NCBI GenBank assembly: GCA_964601615.1
Contig: CAZRNZ010000002.1
Coordinates: 73,339 to 137,338, forward strand
DNA from: an uncultured Candidatus Saccharibacteria bacterium
GTDB taxonomy: Bacteria; Patescibacteriota; Minisyncoccia; Phycocordibacterales; UBA918
Direction of reading: 5' to 3'
Length of the DNA stretch: 64,000 nucleotides
Both the position numbers and the translations under genes were made by a program. Shown in pieces: positions 8,216-39,148 of this stretch (position 1 is the first letter of the stretch; every line of letters begins with the position of its first letter). The notes under the pieces were generated by a model, which worked only from the letters and a program-made list of their open reading frames with translations, did no database searches and was not told the origin of the DNA.

Positions 8216-9595
8216 TTATTTTAATAACATTCTAATCTGAGCTATCTCCTCTTCTAGATTCGAATCACTCTTCAGTTCGTTTTTTATCTTCTCGCAAGAA
8301 TGAATTACTGTTGTATGGTCTCTCCCTCCCAACTTTTGTCCGATAGTTGGATAAGAAACTGAAAAGTCTTCTCGTAGAATATACATTATCAGCTGACGAG
8401 GTTTAACTACTTCCTTCCGTCTGGTTTTTTCGTAGATACTTTTTGGATCAATATTAAAGTACTGCGCAACCTTTTCTACTACGTCATCAATCGCCATGCT
8501 ACGCCTAGGGCGGGTACTGTTTTTGATAATAGTTCTAACTTCCTCAAGGTTCAAAACCCTGCCCAAAAGTTGTGATTGACACATTATTGAGTTAAGTGCC
8601 CCTTCTAATTCGCGAATATTACCACTGACAGATTCAGCTAGGTGGTCGATAACTTCAGGATCTAGCGTGATACTGTTTTGAGCCGCTTTAGCTTTTAGGA
8701 TTGCTGCTCTAGATTCTAAATCTGGTGCAGGTATATCAACAATCATTCCGGCAGCAAATCGTGATTGTAAGCGTTCTTCCATGCCAGAAAGTAGGGCTGG
8801 ATGAATATCACTAGAAAAAACAATCTGCTTGTTGTTGTCGTGAAGAGTGTTAAACAAATGGAATAGTTCTTCTTGAGTTTTTTCCTTACTGTTTAAAAAC
8901 TGGACATCGTCCATTACCAGAACATCGTACTGACGGTACTTGTCCTTGAAGCTGTTAGCAGTTCCGCTTTGAAGTGAGTTGAAATAATCTACAGTAAAAC
9001 GTTCGGCTGTAACATAAAAAACTTTTTTTCCGCTTTGTTTTATCTTGTTCCCTACTGCTTGAATAAGGTGGGTTTTTCCGTGACCAGTTTTTCCATAAAT
9101 AAATAATGGATTATATGCAATTCCAGGTCGTTCGCTAACTGTTTTTGCAGCAGCATGAGCAAGGGCGTTGAATGGCCCAATAACAAAAGTATCAAAAGAA
9201 TACTTAGGATTTAGGTTATCGCTTTTGTTTATATAGTACTCTTCTAATGGTAAAGCAGAATTTACGTTTGAAGTACGGCTTTCTTGTCTTTTTTCACTTC
9301 TCTGTACAACTGTGTATTCAATATTTCGTACAAACGGTGCGTTTTCACGCAGTACGCGCAGAATCATCGATTGAAACTTGTCTTGCAACCAATCTCTTAC
9401 AAAAACACTTGGAACGCCAAGAGTTATAGTGCCGTCCTCAAGAGAGACTATACGAGTGTCGCGAAACCAAGTCTTAAAGTTAGCTGGAGTAATTGCTAAC
9501 TCGATACTAACTAAAACGTCATCCCATAACTTTTTAATATCAACCTGTTCTGATGTAATAAGACTGTTCACGATCGATGGTGATATTTGATTCAT
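8216..9595 (-). CDS. dnaA: Chromosomal replication initiator DnaA
   Basis: AAA+ Walker A GKTGHGKTHLIQAVGN, Walker B VLVMDDVQFL, and C-terminal DNA-binding domain with the HTTV motif. Confidence 0.95.
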   Translation of the reverse strand: MNQISPSIVNSLITSEQVDIKKLWDDVLVSIELAITPANFKTWFRDTRIVSLEDGTITLGVPSVFVRDWLQDKFQSMILRVLRENAPFVRNIEYTVVQRSEKRQESRTSNVNSALPLEEYYINKSDNLNPKYSFDTFVIGPFNALAHAAAKTVSERPGIAYNPLFIYGKTGHGKTHLIQAVGNKIKQSGKKVFYVTAERFTVDYFNSLQSGTANSFKDKYRQYDVLVMDDVQFLNSKEKTQEELFHLFNTLHDNNKQIVFSSDIHPALLSGMEERLQSRFAAGMIVDIPAPDLESRAAILKAKAAQNSITLDPEVIDHLAESVSGNIRELEGALNSIMCQSQLLGRVLNLEEVRTIIKNSTRPRRSMAIDDVVEKVAQYFNIDPKSIYEKTRRKEVVKPRQLIMYILREDFSVSYPTIGQKLGGRDHTTVIHSCEKIKNELKSDSNLEEEIAQIRMLLK

Positions 9596-10021: not shown

Positions 10022-10345
10022 ATGTTGAAGAAAAAAGAGCGATTAACAAAAAAAGAGTTTGATCGCTTTTTTTCTTTGGGAAAAAGGTTGCACTCCCCTT
10101 TCTTTACTATTGTTTATACAAAGAGTGATAATTTTCACGGGGCAGTAGTGGTGGGAAAAAAGGTTTTTAAAAACGCTGTTGATAGAAATCTTTTGCGTCG
10201 GCGGTTGTACAATTCGCTTTATAAGTTGTCTCGTGCGGATAATCTAAAAGGAGTGTATATAATACTATCTAAGCCACAAGCGGCTAAAATGTCTTTTTTT
10301 GATTTATACCAAGAGATGAAGACTATTACTGATTCTATAAAATAA
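10022..10345 (+). CDS. rnpA: Ribonuclease P protein component
   Basis: Basic 107-aa protein with the RnpA pattern (FTIVY...VVGKKVFKNAVDRNLLRRRL) in the conserved rpmH-rnpA-yidC order. Confidence 0.85.
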   Translation: MLKKKERLTKKEFDRFFSLGKRLHSPFFTIVYTKSDNFHGAVVVGKKVFKNAVDRNLLRRRLYNSLYKLSRADNLKGVYIILSKPQAAKMSFFDLYQEMKTITDSIK

Positions 10346-10348
10346 TTT

Positions 10349-11077
10349 ATGTTCTCTACTATTTGGCACACAATCTTTTTCGACCCAATTTATAATGGGC
10401 TAGTTTTTTTTATTGACGTTATTCCAGGTGGAGATATTGGTTTGGCGATTATCTTTACCACTATTGTAGTTAAGTTAATTTTGATGCCTCTTTCTATTAA
10501 GGCAGCTAAAACTCAAAAGGTTATTCGTGAAATTGAGCCAGAATTAAAAGAAATCCAAGAAAAATATAAAGATGATCGCGAATCTTTGGCCAGAGAGACG
10601 ATGACTTTATATAAGAATAAAGGAATAAATCCTTTTTCCAGTATTTTCTTGTTACTTTTACAGATTCCAGTTGTAATTGCACTTTATCTTTCTGTATTAA
10701 GTGGCGGAGGCGTTCCTTTGCCTAACATTAATCAGGAACTTCTCTACTCTTTTGTTCCTTCTCCTGAAACTGTTGATATGATTTTCTTAGGTTTTGTGGA
10801 TATTGCTGCTAAGAGTTGGCCTTTAGCTTTATTGGCAGGACTCGCTCAGTTTGCTCATGCAAATATTTCTTTACCAAAATTAGGTGGAAGAAAGGCTGGT
10901 GAAGTTGATTTTAAGGCAGATTTTGCACGTAGCATGGATATGAATATGCGGTATGTTATGCCGGCCATTATTGCTGTTTTTGCTTACACCCTCTCTGCTT
11001 CAGTAGCTTTATATTTCTTGGTAAGTAGTCTGTTTGCGATTGCACAAGAGTTTGTAATTAGAAGACATAGGAATTAG
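10349..11077 (+). CDS. yidC: Membrane protein insertase YidC/Oxa1 (short Gram-positive-type)
   Basis: Multi-TM protein with the conserved PLSIKAAKTQKVIREIEPELKEIQEKYKDD region, following rnpA. Confidence 0.88.
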   Translation: MFSTIWHTIFFDPIYNGLVFFIDVIPGGDIGLAIIFTTIVVKLILMPLSIKAAKTQKVIREIEPELKEIQEKYKDDRESLARETMTLYKNKGINPFSSIFLLLLQIPVVIALYLSVLSGGGVPLPNINQELLYSFVPSPETVDMIFLGFVDIAAKSWPLALLAGLAQFAHANISLPKLGGRKAGEVDFKADFARSMDMNMRYVMPAIIAVFAYTLSASVALYFLVSSLFAIAQEFVIRRHRN

Positions 11078-11122: not shown

Positions 11123-12313
11123 TTATAACCCTAGATTATAAAGCCAAAGACTGTTATTGGTTTTATTTAAGAAGAGCAACTTTTTCCCATCCTCTGTAAC
11201 AAATAACTTTATTACATCAATATCAAATCCCGCTAAATTTGGTAAGTAAGATAATATTTTAGCTGAACCATCAGTATTTTGTTGCCATAGTGTGTCTGAA
11301 GAAGTTATTTCACCTTTGTACCATTTTGATAAACTTTCTCTGTTGCCATCGTTTATTTGTGAGGAAAGTGCACAAATAAAACCTGTTAATTCACTATGGG
11401 TACATTTTTCGGGCACTGCTAATACTGAGGCATTAGCTAAGCTGTTATTTTCAATATTCTGAATAGCGTTAGTAATTTTCTGTCTATCTGTATCAAAGCC
11501 AGAATATAAAATGTTATTACCTGATTTGTCGATTACAGCAGAAAAACTATACAAATTTTTCTGGTTAATTCTCTGGGTATTTCCATTAATTATCTCGTAT
11601 ACCCCCCCTTTAAACCAAGGAGAGTTTTTGTTCGTTAAATAAGTTTTATTGTCAGACCAAAAAACTTCTATTTCAGTCATTGGTGTTGTCCATAGATCCT
11701 GAGTAAGATTCTCTTGCCAGTCATACTGTCGGGCAAATGTTTGATTGTTTTCTATAGTTGTATATCTAATGTCACCAATATTATTAAAAGAGAAATTACT
11801 GCTGTTTATGGGCAGTTTAGTGCTTTTAACAGTATTACCCCCAAGGGCGACAATAGTTGGTATTATGTCTGTTACCTGCTCTGATTCTAGAACAACCAAT
11901 TCACCGCTCAAATTAAATATTGCATTAACTGTTTTCCCTGTGGTATTTCCTGAAATTCTTGATTCACTATTATTATCTAAATTTATTTCATATACATGCC
12001 CAGTTCCTCTTTCAACGTAGCGAATTCTCTCTGGTTTTTCGGGGGTTGTAGTGGATGCTTCAATTTTGGGTAGATAAACGAAACCCGCAACCACTTTAGT
12101 GGTAAGTTGTCTTAATTGATTTTGATTGTCTGCCAGCTGAGTGTTTCCTGAATTTGTTTCTGTTTGTATTTCCGTCGGTTGTCCAATTATTCCTAGATCA
12201 GTAAAAACACTATTAATATTATTAGGTGTTCCAAATAAAAGTAAATAACCCCAAAGTAGTAGCAAGGTAACTACTACAAAAATACCAATTCCTACTAGTA
12301 TTCTTTGGGTCAT
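11123..12313 (-). CDS. Membrane-anchored extracytoplasmic protein, last gene of the T4SS-like operon
   Basis: N-terminal TM helix then an about 360-aa N/T/S-rich domain. 2-bp gap to the upstream gene. Confidence 0.5.
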   Translation of the reverse strand: MTQRILVGIGIFVVVTLLLLWGYLLLFGTPNNINSVFTDLGIIGQPTEIQTETNSGNTQLADNQNQLRQLTTKVVAGFVYLPKIEASTTTPEKPERIRYVERGTGHVYEINLDNNSESRISGNTTGKTVNAIFNLSGELVVLESEQVTDIIPTIVALGGNTVKSTKLPINSSNFSFNNIGDIRYTTIENNQTFARQYDWQENLTQDLWTTPMTEIEVFWSDNKTYLTNKNSPWFKGGVYEIINGNTQRINQKNLYSFSAVIDKSGNNILYSGFDTDRQKITNAIQNIENNSLANASVLAVPEKCTHSELTGFICALSSQINDGNRESLSKWYKGEITSSDTLWQQNTDGSAKILSYLPNLAGFDIDVIKLFVTEDGKKLLFLNKTNNSLWLYNLGL

Positions 12314-12314
12314 A

Positions 12315-12935
12315 TTAGTTTGGGTTACATTTATAAATAGTTGCTAATTGGGTACCGGTCCAGTAATTTTCATCGCGCGCTACATTTCCCTGGTTTTGGT
12401 TACATAGCTGAGTCAGTTCACTTACAGTTCGATCAAAACAGCCTGAGTCACTATTTTGACAGTGACTGAGTATGGATGTGGAATGAACAAATTCGTGAGT
12501 GTAAAACTCATCGCGAAGTGGCGTATTATTAACCACGCCAGTATTTTCTGAACCAGATTGAGTTGTTGTTGGTGCTAGTTCACTAGTTTCAAGTTCTTCT
12601 ATTATTGTTAGCCTAGTAAGATTGGGGTTAATTGTATTTAAAATAGTTACTGCTCCAAGGATTATCAGAAGTCCAAGTAGGGCATTTTTTATACGCTCTT
12701 TAGCGGCAGATTTTTTTGTTACCAGGTCTGATAACATATATTCAGCTCCTGCCCAAATAAGCATTCCTACAGCTGCAATTGCACCTAAAGCAATTGCAGC
12801 CATATATATAGCTTGAATATAATTACTAGAAGAAACTTCACCTGTAATAAAGGGTATTTGTTGAAAAGTAGTTATTTCATTGGCGCTTACTATAGTTGGT
12901 GCTAATAATATAGCTAAAAATAATATCTTTCTCAT
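12315..12935 (-). CDS. VirB2/TrbC-like pilin candidate with a Cys-containing C-terminal extension
   Basis: Signal peptide (MRKILFLAILLAPTIVSA), two hydrophobic helices separated by a short basic loop (classic VirB2/TrbC topology), then an about 100-aa tail with 4 Cys. Assigned by architecture and operon context. Confidence 0.5.
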   Translation of the reverse strand: MRKILFLAILLAPTIVSANEITTFQQIPFITGEVSSSNYIQAIYMAAIALGAIAAVGMLIWAGAEYMLSDLVTKKSAAKERIKNALLGLLIILGAVTILNTINPNLTRLTIIEELETSELAPTTTQSGSENTGVVNNTPLRDEFYTHEFVHSTSILSHCQNSDSGCFDRTVSELTQLCNQNQGNVARDENYWTGTQLATIYKCNPN

Positions 12936-13681
12936 AGATTTAAATTGAAAATACCCTTAGTAATTTCCGATAGATTTTGTTGACTACGAACATTTAATAT
13001 AACCTCAGTTGTTTCTTTATTAAAAGAATCGCTTCTAATTAAAGAAACTTCTCGCCAGTCATTTGGATTAAGTACAATATTTACACCCTGAGATTGCCAT
13101 GATCCTAGTGTATTAGAAAGAAGTGATTGAGTACCAAAGAAAAATGGCTCCGCTCGTACAGAAGTTTCGTTTCCTATTAAAATAAGATTTTTACCAATTG
13201 AATTTTGATTAAGACCACGAAGTTCATTATTTTCATAAAATAAGATCTTAGGAGAAGAAGTTTTTATGTATTCAGAAGCTGTACCAATGTTTTGCCCAGA
13301 AGCTGTACTTACTGTAACACTGATTAACACTTCCCTATTTGTAGCAGGTAAGTTTGTTATAACAAAAGGTGCTGATGTAGTTATGTTTTGGCTACCGATC
13401 CTCCAATTAAATCTACTCGCCTGAATATTTGTTTCTGGAATAGCAGTTATCTTTACAGAACTACCTACTATTGGCTCACTTCTACCTTTATAAAAATATG
13501 GTTTGTAAGTATTGGCTTCAACTATAAGGTCAATTGTCGAAAGACTCACAGTTGCTGTACTTGTTGCAATGTTTTGTCCATTATTAATGGGTAAAACAAA
13601 ACTTTGTTGAGCATGAGCAAAATTTATATTAAATAATATTGCTAAAAATAATATATATTTTTTTTTGCCTGTTGATGCCAT
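12932..13681 (-). CDS. Secreted protein (signal peptide), T4SS-like operon
   Basis: N-terminal signal peptide, beta-rich composition, 4-bp overlaps on both sides. Confidence 0.5.
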   Translation of the reverse strand: MASTGKKKYILFLAILFNINFAHAQQSFVLPINNGQNIATSTATVSLSTIDLIVEANTYKPYFYKGRSEPIVGSSVKITAIPETNIQASRFNWRIGSQNITTSAPFVITNLPATNREVLISVTVSTASGQNIGTASEYIKTSSPKILFYENNELRGLNQNSIGKNLILIGNETSVRAEPFFFGTQSLLSNTLGSWQSQGVNIVLNPNDWREVSLIRSDSFNKETTEVILNVRSQQNLSEITKGIFNLNL

Positions 13682-13694
13682 TCAGTAAATGATA

Positions 13695-14327
13695 TCACAG
13701 AGATTTATCACGAAGGAACATATATAAAGACCAAAGCCACATTATTGGGAATAAGTTTATTATTGGGCAAAGAAGAAGAACTAAACAAACTGATATCACC
13801 AAAATACTAAATCCTCCCAAAACATCTTCGCCACTTCCTGTATAAAGTGCTGCAGCTACGAACCAAGTTACTAAACCGCATATCATAGAGCCAGCAATTC
13901 CTATCAAAAATACTCCGGTGCCAGCTTCTTGAATTGAGTTAAATGTTACCCAGTTAAGAGCTGACATTACCCAATTTGATTCTGTTTCTGACATTAACCC
14001 TAGACCAATTAAGGCTATCAGAGCTAGACATAGTTGGATTATATAAATAATCACCGTATATGAAATAGAGGTGGTAAAAAGTTTGAAAGATGCTGCATCA
14101 GCATTTAATTTGTCACTAATCTTCACAAAATCTTTTACTTCCTGAGCAGTGTTTTGATTTGGAAAGAACTTAACCTTTTTAGGTGAAATACGTGGGGAAC
14201 TATTTCGTTGAGAGATGTTTGGACGACTCGGTTTTTTTAAACGTGAGTCATTACTAAAACCGCTCCCTGATTTAGTTGAACCACTAGGAGTCGGGGTCTT
14301 TTTTACTACAACGTTTTTTATGACCAT
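13695..14327 (-). CDS. Polytopic membrane protein with a basic S/P/K-rich N-terminal tail, T4SS-like operon
   Basis: About 80-aa disordered basic N-terminus followed by 4 predicted TM helices. Confidence 0.5.
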   Translation of the reverse strand: MVIKNVVVKKTPTPSGSTKSGSGFSNDSRLKKPSRPNISQRNSSPRISPKKVKFFPNQNTAQEVKDFVKISDKLNADAASFKLFTTSISYTVIIYIIQLCLALIALIGLGLMSETESNWVMSALNWVTFNSIQEAGTGVFLIGIAGSMICGLVTWFVAAALYTGSGEDVLGGFSILVISVCLVLLLCPIINLFPIMWLWSLYMFLRDKSL

Positions 14328-14330
14328 AGG

Positions 14331-16139
14331 CTAGTCTCGCAACGATTTAAGTTCAGCGCGAGCTTTTTTGATCTGAAGAAGTTGAGAAGGGTCAGATGTA
14401 ATAATTTGATCTTCTGTATAACTTGCTATCACTTTGATAGCAACATGTTTTAGTCCCACAAAGAATATACCCTCCCCCACGTTACTCTCTAGCAGCAAAA
14501 GTTTCTCTTCGTCAGTAAGATTGAAAGTTTTTTGTACGCTATCTATTGCGGTTGGTGATTGCTTCATTAAAAATTGTAATGAAGAGTTGGTAATCATAGG
14601 AACTCCGTAAGGGGAGCGCAAAAAGTCGCCCACATCTTGTGTGATAGTAGCAATACCAAGATAGTACTTTCGGCCACGTTTAGCTAGAGAAAACAGGAAG
14701 GAAGCAGTGTCTTCGCTTTTCATCATCCACCAAGCTTCATCGATAACCATCAAACGTTTTGCTAGGCGACGTCTAATCATATTCCAGATATGGTTTGTGA
14801 TGATATACATAGCAATTGTTTTGAGTTCATCTTCCATGTCACGCAGGGAGAAAACAATAAACTTTTGGTTTATATCCACATTAGTTGGATGATTCATGAA
14901 GCCAGACCAGGTTCCGCTAGTGTATTTTTGTAAGCGAGCGATAAGTGAATTACTTCCCTCCATTCCTGCTAATACCATTTCAAAATCTGAAAGAAGTGGA
15001 TACTCCATACCTGTCCAATCAGCATCTCCGGTAATGTCTTTAAGTGCGTAAACTTCGCGAATAGCTTGGTCAACAATAGTTTCCTCTTCAGGTGAAAGTC
15101 CGCCTAGCATTAAACGCATCAAGCCAATTAACTCAATGATATGAGAGCGTAGAATATCGTTTGGATCTTCATCTTCTTGCGGGTCTGGCAGGTCAAATGG
15201 GTTTATATGGTGTGGACTAGACAGAGAGATGTTGAAAAAACGTCCTCCTGTAGCTTCAGCTAAGTACTCATATTCCCTTTCAGGGTCGAGGACAATAACT
15301 TCTGTACCAAACATTAAAGAACGAAGAATCTCTAATTTAATAGCATAAGATTTTCCAGCACCAGAAGTAGCGAATGTTACTGAATTATAGTTTGTTAAAG
15401 AAAACCTATCGAATAATACAAGTGATGAGTTGTGACGGTTTATACCGTAAAGTATGCCGTTGTCACTAGTTAGGTCAAAAGATGTAAAAGGAAAAAAGCT
15501 AGAAAGTGGTGAAGAATTAAATTTACTATGAACTAAAAGCTCATCAGTCATTGTTGGTAAAACACTTTTTATACCTTGCTCTTGCTGGAATAATGCTGGT
15601 TTAATATAAACCAGTCTAGAATCTAGAATTCCTTTTACTTCTGATTCAGTTTTATTTAAAATATCTTCGTCTTGTCCGTAAACTGCGATATATAAACCTA
15701 CATCAAAAAGCTTCTCCTCAGCTTGTTGAAGTTTGTCGCGCAAATCTTCTAGGTTTCTATAAGCAGCTTCAAGTTGAGGGTCGCGCACCATCCCCTTGCT
15801 TTCGTTTGCATTGATTTGACTTTGTACCTCAGCTACTTTCTTTTGAAATTTCTTTAAAGTATCCGCAGTGTCTATCGGATGAATCATTATTGATACGTCC
15901 ATTTCTTTTTCTAAGTTTAAGATAGGTTCGAGCCATCCGTCATTTAAATAACGAGGATAAGATACTGCAAAAAAAACACGGGCATTTTGACCACTTATAT
16001 TTATATGACGTGGTTGCACAGAGACTGCTGATGGAGCAACAACATCTTCTAGTGTCATTAGGGCACTTTTAGTATCTAGAACATTATTATCACTAATTGC
16101 ACCAGATTTATTTTGTTTTATTAAATCAAAAATTCCCAT
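14331..16139 (-). CDS. virB4: VirB4/TrbE/CagE-family type IV secretion ATPase (C-terminal ATPase domain)
   Basis: Walker A FATSGAGKSYAIK, Walker B RLMVIDEAWWMM (the DEAW signature of VirB4), and a downstream IATITQDVGDF motif. Confidence 0.85.
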   Translation of the reverse strand: MGIFDLIKQNKSGAISDNNVLDTKSALMTLEDVVAPSAVSVQPRHINISGQNARVFFAVSYPRYLNDGWLEPILNLEKEMDVSIMIHPIDTADTLKKFQKKVAEVQSQINANESKGMVRDPQLEAAYRNLEDLRDKLQQAEEKLFDVGLYIAVYGQDEDILNKTESEVKGILDSRLVYIKPALFQQEQGIKSVLPTMTDELLVHSKFNSSPLSSFFPFTSFDLTSDNGILYGINRHNSSLVLFDRFSLTNYNSVTFATSGAGKSYAIKLEILRSLMFGTEVIVLDPEREYEYLAEATGGRFFNISLSSPHHINPFDLPDPQEDEDPNDILRSHIIELIGLMRLMLGGLSPEEETIVDQAIREVYALKDITGDADWTGMEYPLLSDFEMVLAGMEGSNSLIARLQKYTSGTWSGFMNHPTNVDINQKFIVFSLRDMEDELKTIAMYIITNHIWNMIRRRLAKRLMVIDEAWWMMKSEDTASFLFSLAKRGRKYYLGIATITQDVGDFLRSPYGVPMITNSSLQFLMKQSPTAIDSVQKTFNLTDEEKLLLLESNVGEGIFFVGLKHVAIKVIASYTEDQIITSDPSQLLQIKKARAELKSLRD

Positions 16140-16142
16140 ATC

Positions 16143-16781
16143 CTATTTATTACTTGGTGGATTTTTCTTAACATCACCGGGGTTGAAAATATGATAATAA
16201 AGCTCAACCAATTCTTCATTTTTTAGTAAAATGCTGCGGACGCCAACCGAAGAAAGACCCTGTTCTACCAATGATAATCTTTGTTCAAGTTGAGTTTTAT
16301 GTTCGGTAAAATTTTTGTCATCAAAATAAACATTTTTTTGACCGCCTAGCATCTCTTTAAAATTACCAAGATTCTTTTGTAAATTAGCAGAGGTTGGAGT
16401 ATAGGGAATGATAACAAAAAAACTTTTTGACATTACATCAACTTCATTTGTGAAGTTTTTAATAAATTGAATATATTCTCTGAGTTGAATTTTCATCAAT
16501 TCATTGTTTTGACTATCTTCCCTAGAGGCTAGAAGGTTTAGATATGGCTGAATATCGAGCCTACGAGATTGAATATAAATCTGAATTGAAAAATCTAAGG
16601 TGTTTAAGAAAGTTTGAAATTGGCGGAGAATAGCTTCTTGTTCGTCATATGATTTAAGGGCAAAGTTAATTGAAGACGCTAAAAGAACCATATTCATTTG
16701 GCCGTTCTTCAAAATAACCACGTCATCTCTAACGTCGCTTACTGGTACAAAATTCTGAGTAGTATTTTTGTCTGCTGCCAT
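16143..16781 (-). CDS. Soluble protein directly upstream of virB4, candidate split-off VirB4 N-terminal domain
   Basis: 212 aa, 3-bp gap to virB4. Combined 212+602 aa matches typical full-length VirB4 (about 800 aa). Inference. Confidence 0.45.
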   Translation of the reverse strand: MAADKNTTQNFVPVSDVRDDVVILKNGQMNMVLLASSINFALKSYDEQEAILRQFQTFLNTLDFSIQIYIQSRRLDIQPYLNLLASREDSQNNELMKIQLREYIQFIKNFTNEVDVMSKSFFVIIPYTPTSANLQKNLGNFKEMLGGQKNVYFDDKNFTEHKTQLEQRLSLVEQGLSSVGVRSILLKNEELVELYYHIFNPGDVKKNPPSNK

Positions 16782-16813
16782 CGTTACAATATAATAACAT
16801 TATCTGTTCAGCG

Positions 16814-17233
16814 TTAACGATTATCTTTTTGAATAGCTTTCATTTCAAGGCGTCGAGAAAGAGAAGCAATATTGTTTTCAGTAGTTGTTGGTGGGATATA
16901 TGAAGACGTGCTTACTGGAGGTGTGTTTTCGGAAGATGTATTATAAATCCCACTCCCCTTTTTGCGCCAGAAATATAATTTATTACCTTGGAAATATCGC
17001 ACAGCCGCCTCAAGGAAGTTAGAAAAAGGTCGGTTGTTTACTGGATAAAAAGCTAACAAAAAAGTTAGTGCTAAAACTGGAATACCAAGTAAAACAAAGA
17101 TAATAAAAGGAGTAAAAAAGAAAAGTACTGCTGATAATCCAACTCCTCCAGCAATATAAACAAATTGCTTCCAGGTCAGTGGACCAAAAATCTTGTCTTC
17201 TATTTCAATAAATTGTGGAACTTCGAATCTCAT
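16814..17233 (-). CDS. VirB3-like small membrane protein (two TM helices)
   Basis: 139 aa with a hairpin pair of TM helices (FVYIAGGVGLSAVLFFFTPFIIFVLLGIPVLALTFLLAFYPV) located just upstream of the VirB4 module, as for VirB3/TcpE/ConD. Confidence 0.5.
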   Translation of the reverse strand: MRFEVPQFIEIEDKIFGPLTWKQFVYIAGGVGLSAVLFFFTPFIIFVLLGIPVLALTFLLAFYPVNNRPFSNFLEAAVRYFQGNKLYFWRKKGSGIYNTSSENTPPVSTSSYIPPTTTENNIASLSRRLEMKAIQKDNR

Positions 17234-17793
17234 TTTTTGATTATATCATCTTGTGAAGAGCGATATACACCTTCTTCCTCAGATGTCTGACTCTTAAATG
17301 TGCCGTAACTATGAGCTCGGCTTATTTCTACATCTTCTGCAAAAGTCCTAATTGGTTTTACTGCATTCTGAATAGTCTCTTTTACTTCAGGAGTAATTTT
17401 TGGTGAAGTATTTTCTGTTCCTTCTGTTATTGTAGGCTTTATTTCTTTAGAGGTTTCGTCTTCTAATAACTCTGCAGCAATTTTTAACTCTCCGTCAACA
17501 ATTGAAAAAAGTTCTTCATCCAAAAAAAGAGAAATTTCTCTAGCAATAGATATTTCTGTAGGTAATGATTCTGTTAATCTCTCTATAAGACCTTTTCTGG
17601 TAAGAAAAAGATATAAAATCAAATCTATTTCCATTTGTAAGCCAGATTTTTGTTCCTCACTTAATGTGAACTGACTTACAGTCTTTTCTAATACAACCTC
17701 AACTGTGCCATATTGAAATAGCTCAATAATACTAAGTGGTAGCGCTTGGTATCTTTGTTGCATTAATTCTGGTAGTTGAGAGTTGTTGTACAT
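17230..17793 (-). CDS. Acidic soluble hypothetical protein, T4SS-like operon
   Basis: 187-aa ORF with a 4-bp overlap to the downstream gene. Confidence 0.45.
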   Translation of the reverse strand: MYNNSQLPELMQQRYQALPLSIIELFQYGTVEVVLEKTVSQFTLSEEQKSGLQMEIDLILYLFLTRKGLIERLTESLPTEISIAREISLFLDEELFSIVDGELKIAAELLEDETSKEIKPTITEGTENTSPKITPEVKETIQNAVKPIRTFAEDVEISRAHSYGTFKSQTSEEEGVYRSSQDDIIKK

Positions 17794-17803
17794 ATTTATC
17801 TTT

Positions 17804-19825
17804 TTACTTACCCTTTATCTTCTTTTTGTATTCGTTTCTGATTTCTGTTGCAGCATTGTCATTCTGTGATTTATCTCTTCCTGTAAAGAGGTTGGATATA
17901 ACATTTTTATTTTCAACTGTTGTAGCGTAACCCCCTGCTTCTTTGTCTGCTTTCTTTTCTGCGTTTGCTAAATCTTTTTTTGTTTCTGCTATCTCCTTCT
18001 GTAAATCACTCATTTTAGATTCGATTTCAGATTGTTTTTGCGCGTCATCTCTAGCTGAGGCACGTTCAAGTTGAAGTTCAGCAAAAGCAGACATTTTATT
18101 CTTCAACTCCTTCTTTTTGTCGTCTATTTCTTTATTAGTGCCAGAAGCTATATTGGTTTTAGAGCCAGTTTGACGGCGGAATCTTTCTGCACTAAGCGCT
18201 TCAGTTTGTTTACTTTTTTCATCTTCCAACTCTTCTCCTTTAGCGCGAAATGACTCTATTTGTGCTCTAATCACCTGCCGCTCTCCTTCATCTTTGGATT
18301 CAGATAATGATTTACGTTTATCTTGTATAAGTCTCTTGTTATCCTTAATTGCTTGATCTACAGCATCAACTTCTGTTTGTAAACGTGCAATTACTGGATC
18401 GCTACCACTCACCTCGCCAAGATTTTTGGCATAATTAACCTCTTTATCAAGAACTTGTTTAGTTGTTGTAGCGTAACCACCTTTTACTCCCTCACCAAGA
18501 CCCATCTTTGTACTTGTTGATCTATTTATATTACGAGCATCAAAACTACTGTCACCTAATTTTGTTGTGACATTAAGTGCGCGTCTACCTGCCCAACCAC
18601 TAACTCCTCCGCCAGAAGCTCGATCTCTTCCCTTGTCACTATCGGCGTAGTTTTGTGACCAGCGTCCAACTGTACCTCTTAATCCACCGGCTGCTAAGCC
18701 TGCTGGATTAACATTATTGGCTACATTTATTGCTAGATTAGCACCAGTGTCACCAAATTTTCTGGCTACATAAAGAGCTGCCCAGGCAAAAGCAGCGACA
18801 AAGAAAGAGGATACAATAAAACCAAAAGTATCCATGTCCCCTTGTGCTCTATTGGCCATCAATGTTTCTAGGGCTCTAAGTGATACTAGAAGCATAAAAA
18901 GATATGCTGGACCCATTATGGTTTGGTTTATTAACCTTTTCCACCAAGAGCTACTTAAGTTTTTAAAATTTGGTAAAACCCAACCCAAAAACATAATTGG
19001 CGAAAACATCATTAAGAATATCAGGTAGATAAAGCGTGAAAACATTAGAAGTGCCCCAGCCGCAAAAGTGAAGCCCATAATAATGAACATCAAACAAATT
19101 GCTATACCAATACCAAAAGCATCTCCCCAATTATATCCGCCAGATTGTTGGTCCTCGTCACTGTTGGATATGTAGTTACTAATAGCAAGACTTCGACTAC
19201 TAATAGATTCAATATCTGTAGCAGCTAGGAATCTGTCGTGAATTCCATATACTGGCATACCCATAACGGTAGCTGTTATGCCTGCATCGTCATCTAAGAC
19301 TAATACATTTCTTATTTCAGCAGCAGTGATATTACCAAAATCAATTACTATTTGAGCAGCGTAAAGACTAAAGTTTATTAATAAAGCGGCAATTAATAAA
19401 CTACCTAATGTTCTTTTTGCCTTACCCTCGTCTATTTGTAGAATAATTCTGAATCCTATAAAAATTATGCCAAATATGAATAGAAGATTGAATAAATCTC
19501 TAATAAATTCCCAAACGTACTGAATAACGTCGTCTAGCTGAAGTGTTGAAACTAGACCTGGCATGTTGAAGACAAATAAAGATAAGCTGATGTCTAGTAG
19601 TGAACCACCAATCCAAAGAAAAAAGCCACCTATAGTCGTAAGTGATACATAGATAACCCTACCGATATTGTCAAAGTTTTCAGCCATATTACCCGCATCA
19701 CCAGCTGTACCTGTAGTAGTCGTAGTTGCATAAGCGGTAAATGGACTCAGTAGCAAGGAAAAAGCAAAAAACACTAACAAAAAAATTAGCATTGAAATTA
19801 GTGTTTTTTTTCTTAACCCAAACAT
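17804..19825 (-). CDS. VirB6/TrbL-like polytopic membrane protein with a C-terminal coiled-coil charged tail
   Basis: Signal/TM N-terminus, 6 or more TM helices over about 380 aa, then an about 290-aa K/E/D-rich predicted coiled-coil (KEIDDKKKELKNKMSAFAELQLERASARDD...). Confidence 0.6.
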   Translation of the reverse strand: MFGLRKKTLISMLIFLLVFFAFSLLLSPFTAYATTTTTGTAGDAGNMAENFDNIGRVIYVSLTTIGGFFLWIGGSLLDISLSLFVFNMPGLVSTLQLDDVIQYVWEFIRDLFNLLFIFGIIFIGFRIILQIDEGKAKRTLGSLLIAALLINFSLYAAQIVIDFGNITAAEIRNVLVLDDDAGITATVMGMPVYGIHDRFLAATDIESISSRSLAISNYISNSDEDQQSGGYNWGDAFGIGIAICLMFIIMGFTFAAGALLMFSRFIYLIFLMMFSPIMFLGWVLPNFKNLSSSWWKRLINQTIMGPAYLFMLLVSLRALETLMANRAQGDMDTFGFIVSSFFVAAFAWAALYVARKFGDTGANLAINVANNVNPAGLAAGGLRGTVGRWSQNYADSDKGRDRASGGGVSGWAGRRALNVTTKLGDSSFDARNINRSTSTKMGLGEGVKGGYATTTKQVLDKEVNYAKNLGEVSGSDPVIARLQTEVDAVDQAIKDNKRLIQDKRKSLSESKDEGERQVIRAQIESFRAKGEELEDEKSKQTEALSAERFRRQTGSKTNIASGTNKEIDDKKKELKNKMSAFAELQLERASARDDAQKQSEIESKMSDLQKEIAETKKDLANAEKKADKEAGGYATTVENKNVISNLFTGRDKSQNDNAATEIRNEYKKKIKGK

Positions 19826-19829
19826 AAAT

Positions 19830-21347
19830 TTACTGACTCAATAAGATACCATCATAGTCAAACTCTCCCCCACAATTTTGTTTACTTATGGCGGTATCAT
19901 ACTTGAACCTATCTACCATCTGAGAGAATTCAAGGTCTATATAGGATATCTTTAATTCTTGATTTTTGTAAGCGGTTTGGAATAAACCTTGAGTTTTATA
20001 GGCATTATAAGATACTAAAGCAGCATTTTTAGTTGTTGCATCGCTAGATGAATACTGTGTATCAAGGGTTGTAAGGATTGAGATTGTAGTAGATGCGACA
20101 CTGGTACCTGCCAGACCGTTTTCTCTTGCCTTTTTTAGTTCATCTGTTAACTCCATGTCAAAACAAGGAGAAAATTCTTCTTTGTTTTGATCTAATTTTG
20201 TTTGCAGTGCTGAAACTTCATTTAGTATATGTTGTTGAAGTTGTAAATACTCTTGTTCTATCGCCAAAGCTTCTTTTATTACGTTTGAATTATTAACTTG
20301 GTATTGCGTAATATTATCGGTTATTAATGCTTCGACATAAGAAAGTGCTCCATCTGGTCCAAATATACTCTGGCTATATATTGGGTTTCCAGTTAATCCG
20401 AGAACTCCAGTTAGACCCTGCAAAGCTTGGTTGGCAAGATTGTTCATCAAATTAGAAGCAATTTCATTAAATTCATCCATGTTCAACATCTGCAAACCTG
20501 GAAGTTCGACCAAGTTGAAAGAGACCATATCAGCCGCCAATGATGGAGGATTTACAATACGACAGTCAGTTCTATTTCCGCCGTTTGCTGTTTCAACATC
20601 TGTACATACTCGCTGAGGCAACATACCTCTCGTGTTACTTATTAGATCACGCTCATTTTGAATAGCATTGGCCTGTCTTCTATTTAAAGTATTTTGACCT
20701 TCATAAACAGCACACATATCATCACGACAGTTTACAAAATCACCTAAAAGTCTATGTGAAATACTTTTGTATTGATTCGTATCCCCTTCTGTTGACTGAA
20801 GCACTCCACCATTAACTCCTTTTTCCCGCTGGCTTAAGTAACCATTATAAAGAGCAGTTCTCACACGGTGTGCTTTCTCTGGGTCAGATTGACCACTAGT
20901 GTCTAGACCTTCTGAGAAAATAAAATCACCAGCAACTTGGTCATTTATATTTTGGTAATACTCAGAATAATTTTGGACAAACGGAATTTGCCCATCTTGA
21001 CCTGGTTGTTGACCGCCTAGCCATTTGAGTAATTCTCCAGTAAGTTGTTGTTGCATCTGCTTGGCCATTCCCCAAGCCGCTGGGTCAAGAACTTGTTCCT
21101 TGAAGAGTAATTGTTCAATTGCGTCAGCAGTTTGTCCTCCTGTAATAGAGGATAAGGTTGTTTTAATCGCTGTTGTAATAGCTGATTCAGAAGCATCACT
21201 GATTATGCGAACATTTTGCACTCCTGAACCAAATATATTTCCTGCTATACTGCCAAGTAGATCCCCTAGTTGCGCTTCGGCCTTCAGGTTTGTAAAACCA
21301 AAAGTTAGACAAAATATAGTTAGGAAGATTGTTATTTTTGTTTTCAT
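19830..21347 (-). CDS. Secreted Cys-containing protein, T4SS-like operon
   Basis: Signal peptide MKTKITIFLTIFCLTFGFTNLKAEA, 505 aa, multiple Cys pairs. Confidence 0.5.
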   Translation of the reverse strand: MKTKITIFLTIFCLTFGFTNLKAEAQLGDLLGSIAGNIFGSGVQNVRIISDASESAITTAIKTTLSSITGGQTADAIEQLLFKEQVLDPAAWGMAKQMQQQLTGELLKWLGGQQPGQDGQIPFVQNYSEYYQNINDQVAGDFIFSEGLDTSGQSDPEKAHRVRTALYNGYLSQREKGVNGGVLQSTEGDTNQYKSISHRLLGDFVNCRDDMCAVYEGQNTLNRRQANAIQNERDLISNTRGMLPQRVCTDVETANGGNRTDCRIVNPPSLAADMVSFNLVELPGLQMLNMDEFNEIASNLMNNLANQALQGLTGVLGLTGNPIYSQSIFGPDGALSYVEALITDNITQYQVNNSNVIKEALAIEQEYLQLQQHILNEVSALQTKLDQNKEEFSPCFDMELTDELKKARENGLAGTSVASTTISILTTLDTQYSSSDATTKNAALVSYNAYKTQGLFQTAYKNQELKISYIDLEFSQMVDRFKYDTAISKQNCGGEFDYDGILLSQ

Positions 21348-21349
21348 AA

Positions 21350-22207
21350 TTACTCTATTTTTATAAAGCGAGAAGCAATATCATTATTATTCCATTTTAT
21401 TCCCAATTTATCTAAAGAAAGATAAAGATTAGATATTGCCAAATAAAGAGCTTCTGTATCTGACTGATATCTTTGGAGTCTTGCCATTGCTGGAAAAGCA
21501 TCATTAAATAGATTTTTAAATGCTTTGATATCTTTCAATATTGCGTTGTAAACATTTATTAGTGAAAGATGTTCTTTAACTAGAGATGGAGGTACTTCAG
21601 TTGCCAACATTGCAGAAATCATTTTTTCGTAAGATTCGATAATTGGATCGAGATCATTTAGTATCTCAGCCTTGTTTCTATTAAGAGCCCGGTTCACTAT
21701 TAGTAGTTCATTGTCTGTATTTGCTGGAGGAGCAAAATCAAAAGTAATGGCTGCAACTTTATTTCCGTAAGTACGAAGAATTTCTTGGTTATTACTTGAA
21801 CCAACTTTAATATCACTTCTGTCATATTGGATATCTAAACTTTCTTGTCTTACTTGCGAAAGAAGAGAGTCGGTATTTTGATTACCTGATGTGTTACCTA
21901 TATATGATTGGGTCGCTAAAGTTACAGCCAGCGCTGCAGTTTTTGTCATGGTGGCTGAATTATTCTCCCCTCCTAAATGAATGGTTGGGATATTTAAAGA
22001 TTCTTGCCAGTCTGGAATTCCATCAAAGTTTTTGTCTGTAATGTTAATAAAAGTTCTAGTGTTGCTCACTAGTGTTGGTGCAACTTTATTTGTTTCTTCT
22101 CTATCCTCTTTATATATTGATGCTACAAAAGAAGTACCAACCAAAGTTAGTCCAAACAAGGAAGCGGCTGCGATTTTCGGATTTATTTTTATTCCCATCT
22201 TATCCAC
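21350..22207 (-). CDS. Secreted or membrane-anchored protein, first gene of the T4SS-like operon
   Basis: N-terminal hydrophobic segment. The ORF-track start at 22207 is a GTG; the first ATG is at 22198. Confidence 0.5.
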   Translation of the reverse strand: MDKMGIKINPKIAAASLFGLTLVGTSFVASIYKEDREETNKVAPTLVSNTRTFINITDKNFDGIPDWQESLNIPTIHLGGENNSATMTKTAALAVTLATQSYIGNTSGNQNTDSLLSQVRQESLDIQYDRSDIKVGSSNNQEILRTYGNKVAAITFDFAPPANTDNELLIVNRALNRNKAEILNDLDPIIESYEKMISAMLATEVPPSLVKEHLSLINVYNAILKDIKAFKNLFNDAFPAMARLQRYQSDTEALYLAISNLYLSLDKLGIKWNNNDIASRFIKIE

Positions 22208-37486: not shown

Positions 37487-38959
37487 CTAACCAACCTTAT
37501 GACTTCGTTCAATTTTCTTTATTTCAGCTAACTCTTCTTCCTTTTGTCTTTCCTTACCTTGTTCACCAAGTTCTTTTAATTCATTTTCACTTAACTTTAG
37601 TAGTTCCAAAACCCTATTATCCATATATTCTTCGGTATTTTTTGAAGGATCTTCTAGTACTTCTTCTAAAAGTGCATGAAGAATGTAACCAAGCTTTCTT
37701 CCTGGTTTCTCACCAGTGTCTTTCATTATCTTGTCACCGTTAGTTTTAAGCATTTTGACTGAAATAGGGTCACGTAATGCTTGATCTACCATTGATTTGT
37801 ATTTACGGAAGCGGAAAGGTTGTTCTTTTGGTCTGCCTGTACCAACTCTGTCCAAAACTCGTAATGTTAGCAAGTCTTCAATATTTTCCTCCCCTACTCT
37901 TGTGATGGTGCGTCTTACGGCAGAAAGACTAATCTCATCTGGATCAGCAAAAAACATATGCCAACGCACTAATATCTCTACTTTTTTGGCCATTTCATTA
38001 GGGATTTTTAGCCTTTTCATTATCTTAGCCGTCATTTTGGCTCCTACAACTTCATGACCAAAAAACGTGTAACGTTTATTTTTACCGCCTTCCCTTCTGG
38101 TAGCTGGTTTACCAATATCGTGTAACAAGGCTGCTATACGCATTTCAGTAGAAAGTTTCTTATCTGCAGCTGCTTGCATGCTACGAAGAAGATGTTCGTA
38201 AACATCAAAAGCGTGAATTCCTCCTTGTTCACAACCAATAGAATCTTTTATTTCAGGTAAAACATAGTCAATCAAACCAAGTTTTTCCAACATCACTATC
38301 CCCATCATGGGATTATCAGAATTTATAATACGGATAAATTCGTCACGAATACGTTCAGCAGAAATATGGCTCAAAAGAGTGCTATTTTTGGAAATAGAGT
38401 TCATTGTTTCAGACTCAATAGCAAAATTTAACTCAGCAGAAAGTCGGATAGCTCGCATCATACGAAGGGCGTCTTCACTAAAGCGCTCATCGGGATTTCC
38501 TACCGTTTTGAGGCGTTTTTTACGCATATCGTCTTCCCCGTCAAACAAGTCAACAGTCTTTTCATCCTTAAGACGAAAAGCAATAGCATTTACAGTAAAG
38601 TCTCTTCTTTTTAAGTCTTCTTCTAAAGAAACACCAAACTCCACGTTGTCTGGTCTTCTTCTATCAGAGTAGCCACTTTCTGTACGATAAGGAGTTACTT
38701 CTACTACCTTAAGTGTTTCCTCTTCTGTATCTTCATTTATCACCCCCACAGTTCCATAGTCATTGTTGGCATAAGAGTCTGGGAAAATAGCTTGAATCTC
38801 TTCTGGAGTTGCATTGGTGGTTAGATCCCAATCCTTCGGAGTCCTCTTTAGCATTAAGTCGCGCACACATCCGCCTACCAAATATGCTTCAAAACCGTTT
38901 TCTTCTAATCTTTCAGAAATAGCCACTACTTCTTTTGGAACATCTTCTCTTGTTAGCAT
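37487..38959 (-). CDS. cca: CCA tRNA nucleotidyltransferase (class II NTase with HD domain)
   Basis: LVGGCVRDLML head motif, the HD-domain HDIGK motif, and tRNA-NT body domains. Confidence 0.88.
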   Translation of the reverse strand: MLTREDVPKEVVAISERLEENGFEAYLVGGCVRDLMLKRTPKDWDLTTNATPEEIQAIFPDSYANNDYGTVGVINEDTEEETLKVVEVTPYRTESGYSDRRRPDNVEFGVSLEEDLKRRDFTVNAIAFRLKDEKTVDLFDGEDDMRKKRLKTVGNPDERFSEDALRMMRAIRLSAELNFAIESETMNSISKNSTLLSHISAERIRDEFIRIINSDNPMMGIVMLEKLGLIDYVLPEIKDSIGCEQGGIHAFDVYEHLLRSMQAAADKKLSTEMRIAALLHDIGKPATRREGGKNKRYTFFGHEVVGAKMTAKIMKRLKIPNEMAKKVEILVRWHMFFADPDEISLSAVRRTITRVGEENIEDLLTLRVLDRVGTGRPKEQPFRFRKYKSMVDQALRDPISVKMLKTNGDKIMKDTGEKPGRKLGYILHALLEEVLEDPSKNTEEYMDNRVLELLKLSENELKELGEQGKERQKEEELAEIKKIERSHKVG

Positions 38960-39043
38960 AAATTATTGATTTTAATTGTATCAATAGATTGTTTATTTGT
39001 CGTTGCTTTTTGTCTCTCTTAAAAGTATAGTAGTTGTCTAAAT

Positions 39044-39116: not shown

Positions 39117-39124
39117 TGATACAT

Positions 39125-39148
39125 AAAACCTGCCCTGCGGCAGGTTTT
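39125..39148 (+). terminator. Terminator after tRNA-Arg
   Basis: aaaacctgccctgcggcaggtttt. Confidence 0.65.

What the first reader, a model, noticed from the sequence alone, without database searches (positions are those of the whole stretch)
14331..16781. VirB4-like ATPase apparently split into a 212-aa N-domain gene and a 602-aa ATPase gene
Canonical VirB4 is about 800 aa with a membrane-associated N-domain. Here the ATPase gene is only 602 aa. The gene immediately upstream (3-bp gap) encodes a 212-aa soluble protein, giving 814 aa in total. Neither gene shows signs of frameshift (different frames, clean stop and start). This may be a natural split. The VirB3-like 2-TM gene sits just upstream, echoing VirB3-VirB4 fusions.
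Basis: inference. Interest (0 to 1): 0.5.

Follow-up and report, generated by a model that had tools for sequence, protein, structure and literature searches.

The report
Two-gene VirB4 secretion ATPase (TrsD-like + ATPase)
The motor ATPase of this ultra-small (Patescibacteria/CPR) bacterium's type IV secretion system is split into two adjacent genes, a conserved arrangement that has already been described, so the finding is correct but ordinary.

Summary
Both ORFs exist as reported: 212 aa at 16143-16781(-) and 602 aa at 14331-16139(-), 3 nt apart, downstream of a PrgI/VirB3-like gene. One detail is wrong. The two genes are in the same frame, separated only by TAG-GAT.

The split reading holds.
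- VirB4 profiles match the two proteins collinearly: the 212-aa protein covers the first ~120-250 positions and the 602-aa protein covers the rest.
- A confident AlphaFold model of the 212-aa protein finds only R388 TrwK/VirB4 chains in the PDB.
- Uninterrupted ~790-aa homologues exist in other Patescibacteria (labelled Colwellbacteria). A model of one aligns end-to-end with TrwK.

The split is not a nonsense mutation or read-through. All 49 related genomes (one per species) that hold both genes keep stop plus restart. They do so in all three relative frames, with gaps from -4 to 403 nt, and both genes show purifying selection.

The split point matches TrsD/TrsE of staphylococcal plasmid pSK41. 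Quiñonero-Coronel et al. 2025 already report TrsD, a remote homologue of the VirB4 N-terminus, as the most abundant T4SS component next to virB4 in Patescibacteria, near dnaA.

Verdict: real, correctly interpreted, already known. The fused/split polymorphism within Patescibacteria is a minor addition.

The parts
16143..16781 (-). trsD-like gene. It encodes a 212-aa soluble protein equivalent to the first half of the VirB4 N-terminal domain (Pfam PF26593 'TraC-like' by precomputed annotation).
   Evidence: ORF. NCBIfam hits to VirB4_plasma 100-252/894 (E 2.4e-13), TrsD 11-145/201 (E 1.5e-5) and CD1110 2-120/752. PF26593 is assigned to the identical protein P0001. AF2 pLDDT 89.6. Foldseek top 14 hits are all TrwK/VirB4. 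hhalign to pSK41 TrsD gives probability 82.8, E 9.4e-6.
16140..16145 (-). Junction: TAG stop of the trsD-like gene (16143-16145) plus a 3-nt spacer GAT (16140-16142), directly followed by the ATG of virB4. The two genes are in frame.
   Evidence: In 49 relatives the junction always has stop plus restart, with gaps of -4 to 403 nt and all three relative frames.
14331..16139 (-). virB4 ATPase gene, 602 aa. It holds the second half of the VirB4 N-terminal domain (roughly residues 25-220) and the C-terminal P-loop ATPase domain. Walker A is TSGAGKS around residue 260; Walker B is VIDEAW around residue 465.
   Evidence: Pfam P-loop_TraG 7.1e-27, AAA_10, DUF87. NCBIfam conju_CD1110 at 368.8 bits (cutoff 325) covering 179-733/752. 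PDB 4AG5 VirB4 CTD E 2.9e-41 over residues 223-582; TrwK 446-735 aligned to residues 252-548. BLASTP to pSK41 TrsE 6e-35, starting at residue 20 against 29.
16814..17233 (-). PrgI/VirB3-like 2-TM protein, 139 aa, encoded immediately upstream.
   Evidence: Pfam PF12666 PrgI, E 3.2e-10, 40.9 bits against cutoff 27.
17804..19825 (-). 673-aa polytopic membrane protein; a candidate VirB6/TrbL-like channel component.
   Evidence: Only a weak precomputed hit, PF19590 TrbL_3, on the identical gene in L001. No hit in the local Pfam scan. The assignment is tentative.
12315..12935 (-). VirB2-like T4SS pilin, 206 aa.
   Evidence: Pfam PF18895 T4SS_pilin, E 7.1e-8, 32.9 bits against cutoff 26.6.
11123..22207 (-). 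Co-directional, tightly packed T4SS-like gene cluster of 11 ORFs. It includes uncharacterised 285-, 505-, 187-, 210-, 249- and 396-aa proteins. It lies next to yidC/rnpA (10022-11077, +) and dnaA (8216-9595, -).
   Evidence: ORF map. Annotation of the identical contig L001. The same context is described for Paceibacteria in PMC12102498.

Best explanation
This is a genuine, evolutionarily conserved two-cistron VirB4. The 212-aa gene encodes a TrsD-like protein that corresponds to the first ~215 residues of the N-terminal domain (NTD) of a canonical VirB4. The 602-aa gene encodes the rest of the NTD plus the P-loop ATPase domain. The two are co-transcribed with the PrgI/VirB3-like gene. Given the 3-nt spacing, they are probably translationally coupled. 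Shown here: homology of each piece to the matching part of fused VirB4s; existence of uninterrupted fused homologues in the same genomic context; conservation of the split across species; purifying selection on both genes. Inferred: the 212-aa subunit docks non-covalently on the NTD part of the ATPase and rebuilds a complete VirB4 protomer. In the R388 structure the VirB4 NTD is wrapped by VirB3 and makes the VirB4-VirB4 dimer contacts (PMC9259494). By analogy, the small subunit would help tether the hexameric motor to the membrane via PrgI and help assemble the inner-membrane complex of the chromosomal Patescibacteria T4SS. That system is essential for epibiotic growth in Saccharibacteria, and its substrate is unknown (PMC12102498).
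For: Collinear profile matches of the two proteins to fused VirB4 models, reproduced in 86/86 family members. The 602-aa protein starts ~190 residues 'late' relative to TrwK: residue 252 corresponds to TrwK 446. The AF2 model of the 212-aa protein (pLDDT 89.6) hits only TrwK/VirB4 chains (E 1e-4 to 9e-3, TMq up to 0.58; the next hit has E 0.077). Fused P0150 (797 aa) equals 212 aa (42% identity) plus 602 aa (54% identity), in the synteny PrgI-VirB4-...-yidC-rnpA-dnaA. Its model aligns over 836 columns with the 799 modelled residues of TrwK chain 8RTD_O, TM 0.60/0.60, E 1e-28. All 49 related genomes holding both genes (one genome per species) have stop plus restart. Relative frames 0/+1/+2 occur 8/18/23 times, gaps run from -4 to 403 nt, and stops are TAA 30, TAG 18, TGA 1. 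Codon-position identity shows purifying selection on both genes: position 2 at 0.78-0.95 against position 3 at 0.28-0.45. TAG terminates 19 of 57 large ORFs in the window. The gene order and split point match pSK41 trsC-trsD-trsE. The literature reports TrsD as a remote homologue of the VirB4 N-terminus, as the most abundant T4SS component in Patescibacteria, next to virB4 in 1,664 cases, and as essential in S. epibionticum ML1 (PMC12102498).
Against: No direct evidence that the two proteins bind each other; no multimer prediction could be run. The Foldseek output gives no target ranges, so placing the 212-aa fold on the first rather than the second NTD subdomain of TrwK rests on the sequence profiles and on the full-length fused-model alignment. 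The fused model has only moderate confidence (pLDDT 75.4, pTM 0.65). The match to the NCBIfam TrsD model is far below its curated cutoff (24.9 against 200 bits). Sequence searches of the 212-aa protein or its profile against the PDB found nothing.
Confidence: 0.9

Rival explanations
1. Recent nonsense mutation or sequencing error: a normally fused ~815-aa virB4 interrupted by an in-frame TAG, making the locus a pseudogene or an artefact.
For: The two ORFs are in the same frame, separated only by TAG-GAT. Fused ~790-aa homologues exist. MAG-level disruptions of the fused gene do occur elsewhere (L054, L055).
Against: An independent assembly carries the identical sequence (L001). All 49 related genomes with both genes have the split at the same position, but in all three relative frames and with different spacers. 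The ATPase start motif MG[ILF][FL]D[FL][IL]K is conserved. The top 120 homologues of the 212-aa protein are all stand-alone proteins of 181-227 aa. Both genes are under purifying selection.
Confidence: 0.02
2. Programmed TAG read-through or stop-codon reassignment produces a single fused VirB4 from the two in-frame ORFs.
For: The in-frame arrangement with a single TAG. Some Patescibacteria lineages use altered codes (general knowledge; those reassign TGA, not TAG).
Against: TAG ends 19 of 57 large ORFs in the window, including dnaN and yidC, and all three stop codons are used. In 41 of 49 relatives the genes are out of frame, overlapping, or separated by up to 403 nt, so read-through cannot be the conserved mechanism. 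In L005 and L008 a whole extra gene sits between them.
Confidence: 0.03
3. The 212-aa protein is an independent accessory T4SS protein that does not complete VirB4. On this view the 602-aa ATPase is a self-sufficient 'short' VirB4, and the similarity to the VirB4 N-terminus is only historical.
For: [quoted passage not shown] TrsD homologues are not adjacent to virB4 in Gracilibacteria. The small protein evolves faster than the ATPase (56-80% against 75-90% identity). No interaction was tested here.
Against: Fused forms in the same phylum and synteny join the two parts with a linker of only ~10-17 residues. The fused model matches full-length TrwK end-to-end. The 602-aa protein lacks the region that TrwK has before its residue ~190. 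The TrsD homologue is listed as essential in S. epibionticum alongside virB4.
Confidence: 0.05

Closest known systems
TrsD + VirB4 of the Patescibacteria chromosomal T4SS (Quiñonero-Coronel et al. 2025, Microb Genom, PMC12102498; Ca. Southlakia epibionticum ML1 system of Wang et al. 2023)
   Same: Same phylum. Same components: VirB4, TrsD homologue, PrgI/VirB3, VirB2-like pilin, candidate VirB6. Same chromosomal context next to dnaA/dnaN/rnpA/ksgA. The paper states that TrsD shares remote homology with the VirB4 N-terminus and is adjacent to virB4 in 1,664 cases.
   Different: Nothing substantive; the window is one more instance. In the sections I read, the paper does not mention the fused ~790-aa forms, nor that TrsD plus the short VirB4 adds up collinearly and structurally to one complete VirB4.
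TrsD/TraD + TrsE/TraE of staphylococcal conjugative plasmids pGO1/pSK41 (MPF_FATA, pGO1 subclass)
   Same: Same gene order: VirB3-like trsC, then a ~210-230-aa trsD, then a ~600-670-aa virB4-like ATPase. The split point is equivalent: residue 20 of the 602-aa protein aligns to TrsE residue 29. TrsD aligns over 173 columns with the 212-aa family (hhalign E 9.4e-6).
   Different: Very divergent. The NCBIfam TrsD score is 24.9 bits against a cutoff of 200, and ATPase identity is 24%. The window's ATPase scores best, and above cutoff, on the CD1110-type model, whose profile is of the fused type. Whether the two splits share one origin is therefore unresolved. pSK41 is a conjugative plasmid; this locus is chromosomal. 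I did not check the window for a relaxase.
Canonical single-chain VirB4 (TrwK of R388, PDB 7O41/8RTD; A. tumefaciens VirB4)
   Same: Same overall fold when the two pieces are joined. The fused homologue's model aligns with TrwK at TM 0.60/0.60 over ~836 columns. The 212-aa model matches TrwK chains only. The ATPase core is homologous.
   Different: Here the NTD (TrwK residues 15-400 per PMC9259494) is divided between two polypeptides. Sequence identity is ~14-16%. The host is reported as monoderm (PMC12857230), so no outer-membrane core complex is expected; I did not search for one here.
VirB3-VirB4 fusion proteins (for example in some conjugative systems)
   Same: Shows that the VirB3/VirB4-NTD module is evolutionarily plastic with respect to gene boundaries.
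   Different: The event runs the other way (fusion rather than fission). PMC12102498 found no VirB3-VirB4 fusions in Patescibacteria, and PrgI is a separate gene here.

Membership tests
VirB4/TraC-family T4SS ATPase | C-terminal P-loop NTPase domain with Walker A/B, homologous to the VirB4 CTD | tested here: met
   Pfam P-loop_TraG 7.1e-27 and AAA_10. PDB 4AG5 E 2.9e-41 over residues 223-582. GAGKS and VIDEAW motifs are visible in the sequence.
VirB4/TraC-family T4SS ATPase | An N-terminal domain of ~400 aa preceding the ATPase domain, in one polypeptide | tested here: not met
   The NTD is present but divided between two polypeptides: 212 aa plus the first ~220-250 aa of the 602-aa protein. 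The two together meet the feature; neither does so alone.
VirB4/TraC-family T4SS ATPase | NCBIfam curated cutoff for a VirB4 model | tested here: met
   The 602-aa protein scores 368.8 bits on conju_CD1110 (cutoff 325), covering profile positions 179-733/752. It is below cutoff for TIGR00929, VirB4_plasma and TraC.
VirB4/TraC-family T4SS ATPase | Encoded with other T4SS components (VirB3-like, pilin, VirB6-like) | tested here: met
   PrgI (PF12666) and T4SS_pilin (PF18895) hits in the same co-directional cluster. A weak TrbL_3 hit on the 673-aa protein.
VirB4/TraC-family T4SS ATPase | ATP hydrolysis and hexamer/dimer assembly at the membrane | not testable with these tools
   Requires biochemistry or cryo-EM.
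TrsD/TraD family (NCBIfam NF041427; MPF_FATA pGO1 subclass) | Score at or above the curated cutoff of the family model | tested here: not met
   24.9 bits against a cutoff of 200, E 1.5e-5. 83/86 relatives hit the model, best E 8.5e-13. This makes it a remote homologue, not a member of the narrowly defined subfamily.
TrsD/TraD family (NCBIfam NF041427; MPF_FATA pGO1 subclass) | A ~200-230-aa protein encoded between the VirB3-like gene and the VirB4-like ATPase gene | tested here: met
   Window order is PrgI, 212 aa, 602 aa. pSK41 order is trsC (135 aa), trsD (227 aa), trsE (672 aa).
TrsD/TraD family (NCBIfam NF041427; MPF_FATA pGO1 subclass) | Full-length profile similarity to a bona fide TrsD | tested here: inconclusive
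   hhalign of the family profile against pSK41 TrsD: probability 82.8%, E 9.4e-6, 173 aligned columns, 18% identity. The template was a single sequence, so sensitivity is limited.
Pfam PF26593 'TraC-like' domain | Match to the Pfam model | tested here: inconclusive
   Precomputed annotation assigns PF26593 to the identical protein P0001, to all 120 top homologues, and to the N-termini of the fused forms. The local Pfam scan returned no family for the 212-aa protein, presumably because the local copy lacks or differs in this model.
Patescibacteria chromosomal T4SS (MPF_FATA-related; PMC12102498) | VirB4 + TrsD + PrgI/VirB3 + VirB2-like pilin clustered on the chromosome near dnaA/dnaN/rnpA/ksgA | tested here: met
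   (dnaA, dnaN, rnpA, yidC and RrnaAD/KsgA adjacent). Relatives are Kaiserbacteria, Nomurabacteria and Paceibacterota MAGs.
Patescibacteria chromosomal T4SS (MPF_FATA-related; PMC12102498) | No relaxase or coupling protein in the cluster | not tested
   I did not scan every ORF of the window for relaxase or T4CP domains.

The most novel reading that the evidence does not exclude
The VirB4 N-terminal domain is a two-module unit that has been cut and re-joined repeatedly at the same hinge. Most Paceibacteria relatives sampled here carry the split form. A large clade labelled Colwellbacteria carries an uninterrupted ~790-aa form with a 10-17-residue linker. Staphylococcal pGO1/pSK41 plasmids are split at the equivalent residue, yet the window's ATPase is closer to the fused CD1110 type. 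If the splits are independent, or the Colwellbacteria form is a re-fusion, the free TrsD-like subunit may allow a stoichiometry or an assembly checkpoint that a covalent VirB4 cannot. One example would be loading only the 'central' VirB4 subunits that bind VirB3.
Probability: 0.25. Interest if true: 0.35.

Novelty: already known. Interest (0 to 1): 0.15.

Why it matters
It matters little as a discovery. The TrsD-plus-VirB4 arrangement of Patescibacteria, its remote homology to the VirB4 N-terminus and its position near dnaA are published (PMC12102498), and Pfam already models the small protein as PF26593 'TraC-like'.

It has two practical uses.
- Annotation: many homologues of the 212-aa protein are still labelled 'hypothetical protein'. 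They should be read as the N-terminal subunit of a two-chain VirB4.
- Structure: the coexistence of fused and split forms in one phylum gives a natural guide for modelling or expressing the Patescibacteria T4SS motor, a system essential for the epibiotic lifestyle whose substrate is still unknown.

Tried and rejected
- Nonsense mutation or pseudogene. Rejected: conserved stop plus restart in 49 species in all three frames, and purifying selection on both genes.
- TAG read-through or recoding. Rejected: TAG is a frequent ordinary stop in the window, and relatives are out of frame or carry inserts.
- Sequence search of the 212-aa protein and of its 86-sequence profile against PDB sequences. No meaningful hit. 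Only fold comparison found TrwK.
- Local Pfam scan of the 212-aa protein. No family found, although precomputed tables list PF26593.
- Internal duplication of the VirB4 NTD. The fused model shows a similar beta-beta-beta-alpha-beta-alpha-alpha-beta-alpha-beta-alpha order in residues 14-207 and 239-391. hhalign of the two family profiles gives probability 0.14%, so sequence does not support it.
- The 600-aa 'split' forms nearest to the fused clade (P0289, P0385). They are disruptions inside the N-domain (residues 1-89 + 193-796, and 1-147 + 179-791) in co-assembled MAGs, not the conserved split.
- Modelling the window's own read-through fusion. The tool refuses a translation containing a stop, so the natural fused homologue P0150 served as proxy.
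- Guglielmini et al. 2014 (PMC4027160). The main text has no occurrence of 'TrsD', so the statement of homology is cited through PMC12102498.
- Rfam scan of L005 and L008, the two loci that carry the ~400-nt junction insert. No hit.
Full report
**Observation.** The window has two adjacent minus-strand ORFs: 16143..16781 (212 aa) and 14331..16139 (602 aa). The coding strand at the junction reads ...AAT AAA TAG GAT ATG GGA.... The gap is therefore 3 nt, as reported. The gene immediately upstream (16814..17233, 139 aa) is a PrgI/VirB3-like 2-TM protein (PF12666, E 3.2e-10). Because the ORFs are in frame across a single TAG, a nonsense mutation or read-through had to be excluded before accepting a 'natural split'.

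**What the two proteins are.**
- The 602-aa protein is a VirB4-type ATPase: P-loop_TraG 7.1e-27, AAA_10 and DUF87.
- Its residues 223-582 match the crystallised VirB4 C-terminal domain 4AG5 (E 2.9e-41). Its residues 252-548 match TrwK 446-735. It therefore has ~190 fewer residues ahead of the ATPase core than TrwK.
- NCBIfam models of full-length VirB4s match the two proteins collinearly:

| Model | 212-aa protein | 602-aa protein |
|---|---|---|
| VirB4_plasma (894) | 100-252, E 2.4e-13 | 284-893 |
| CD1110 (752) | 2-120 | 179-733, 368.8 bits, above cutoff |

- The 212-aa protein also hits the TrsD/TraD model (E 1.5e-5).
- Across 86 diverse family members, 86 hit VirB4_plasma, 83 hit TrsD, 72 hit CD1110 and 42 hit TIGR00929 VirB4_CagE.
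- Precomputed Pfam assigns PF26593 'TraC-like' to the identical database protein. The local Pfam copy gave no hit.

**Structure.**
- An AlphaFold2 model of the 212-aa protein built on an 86-sequence alignment is confident (pLDDT 89.6, pTM 0.80).
- Against the PDB, its top 14 Foldseek matches are all TrwK/VirB4 chains of the R388 T4SS (probability 1.0, E 1e-4 to 9e-3, TMq up to 0.58). The next match has E 0.077.
- A natural fused homologue, P0150 (797 aa), was modelled at moderate confidence (pLDDT 75.4). It aligns end-to-end with TrwK: 8RTD_O, 836 columns, TM 0.60 normalised either way, E 1e-28.
- So the N-module plus the ATPase protein together make one VirB4 fold.

**Are homologues fused?** Both states exist.
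- The 212-aa protein has 3,097 database relatives. The best 120 (67-100% identity) are all stand-alone proteins of 181-227 aa from Kaiserbacteria, Nomurabacteria and Paceibacterota MAGs.
- Among the 150 best representatives at the 50% clustering level, nearly all are stand-alone. Two are fused: P0150 at 797 aa and P0253 at 898 aa.
- P0150 residues 8-214 align with the 212-aa protein (42% identity). Its residues 225-791 align with residues 25-590 of the 602-aa protein (54% identity).
- P0150 lies in the same synteny: PrgI, VirB4..., yidC, rnpA, dnaA, dnaN.
- A search with P0150 found at least 115 further clusters of uninterrupted 775-807-aa proteins, many labelled Colwellbacteria.
- In an alignment, the fused forms join the two modules by a 10-17-residue linker.

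**Is the split real and conserved?**
- A scan of one genome per species returned 50 loci. In all 49 that hold both genes there is a stop followed by a restart.
- The spacer ranges from -4 to 403 nt, most often 1-5 nt.
- The relative frame is 0, +1 or +2 in 8, 18 and 23 cases.
- Stops are TAA 30, TAG 18 and TGA 1.
- The ATPase start motif MG[ILF][FL]D[FL][IL]K is conserved.
- The in-frame TAG of the window is therefore just one of three equally tolerated configurations.
- Codon-position identities show purifying selection on both genes: position 2 at 0.78-0.95 against position 3 at 0.28-0.45.
- TAG ends 19 of 57 large ORFs in the window and all three stops are used, so there is no sign of recoding.
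- An independent assembly carries the identical locus.

**Comparison with what is known.**
- In pSK41 the order is trsC (VirB3-like, 135 aa), trsD (227 aa), trsE (VirB4-like, 672 aa).
- pSK41 TrsD aligns with the 212-aa family over 173 columns (hhalign probability 82.8%, E 9.4e-6).
- TrsE aligns with the 602-aa protein from residue 29 against residue 20 (E 6e-35). The split point is equivalent.
- Quiñonero-Coronel et al. 2025 (PMC12102498) report the following. [quoted passage not shown] It is the most abundant T4SS component in Patescibacteria (2,272 homologues, 1,664 next to virB4). It is essential in S. epibionticum ML1. In Paceibacteria the cluster lies near dnaA, dnaN, rnpA, ksgA and rpmH, which is exactly the context of this window.
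- The finding is therefore an instance of a published arrangement.

**Mechanism.** Shown: the homology, the collinearity, the fused relatives and the selection. Inferred: the rest of this paragraph. In R388 the VirB4 NTD (residues 15-400) is wrapped by VirB3 and mediates the VirB4 dimer interface (PMC9259494). By analogy, the 212-aa subunit would dock on the NTD half of the 602-aa ATPase, complete the protomer, and link it to PrgI at the membrane. The tight spacing suggests co-translation or translational coupling. Coupling is not obligatory, because two species carry a whole extra gene in the junction. No interaction was tested here.

**Verdict.** The arrangement is already known, so interest is low. 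The fused/split polymorphism within Patescibacteria is a modest addition. A second open point is whether the split has the same origin as that of pGO1/pSK41, given that the window's ATPase scores best on the fused CD1110-type model.

Noticed in passing
L005:4640-5036 and L008:4634-5036 (the junction between the trsD-like gene and virB4 in two related MAGs): A ~400-nt insertion sits exactly between the two genes. It encodes a 119-aa '23S rRNA-intervening sequence protein' (PF05635, E 7.9e-36). It is flanked by inverted repeats AGTTGTCAGTTTTTAGT ... ACTAAAAACTGACAACT, so it looks like a small mobile cassette. It shows that the two VirB4 pieces are separable cistrons.
   Followed up: partly
L054:1282-3458 and L055:1362-3843: The 600/601-aa ATPases most similar to the fused clade (P0289, P0385) are not the conserved split. 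The N-module is broken internally (residues 1-89 + 193-796, and 1-147 + 179-791, in different frames). These are probably deletions, frameshifts or assembly errors in co-assembled MAGs.
   Followed up: partly
window 14331-16139, first ~24 codons; the same region in L002-L051: The split-form ATPases share a conserved N-terminal peptide, MG[ILF][FL]D[FL][IL]K, followed by a variable stretch of ~15 residues. The fused forms lack this motif and have a short linker instead. It could be a docking peptide or a constraint from translational re-initiation; I did not examine it.
   Followed up: no
model of P0150, residues 14-207 versus 239-391 (equivalent to the window's 212-aa protein and to residues ~25-190 of the 602-aa protein): The two halves of the VirB4 N-terminal domain show the same order of secondary-structure elements, which hints at an ancient tandem duplication. 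Profile-profile comparison gives no support (probability 0.14%).
   Followed up: partly
window ~38000-42000 versus dnaA at 8216-9595: The cumulative GC skew reaches its minimum near 40 kb. Gene orientation also switches there, from mostly minus (11-40 kb) to mostly plus (54-64 kb). This suggests the replication origin lies ~30 kb from dnaA rather than beside it. That bears on the published idea that the T4SS sits at the origin.
   Followed up: no
L024, L038 and many L0xx record titles: Loci with 60-75% identical proteins and identical synteny are labelled 'Patiriisocius sp.', 'Acidimicrobiales bacterium' or 'uncultured Candidatus Saccharibacteria'. These are probably mis-binned or mislabelled Paceibacteria contigs.
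   Followed up: no
window 16143-16781: The local Pfam-A scan finds no family for the 212-aa protein. Precomputed tables assign PF26593 'TraC-like' to the identical sequence, so the two resources disagree.
   Followed up: no
window 11123-14327 and 17230-22207: Six co-directional ORFs in the T4SS cluster have no family hit: 396, 249 and 210 aa downstream, and 187, 505 and 285 aa upstream. By eye several appear to have signal peptides or TM segments. They are candidates for the missing VirB8-like, VirB1-like or surface components.
   Followed up: no
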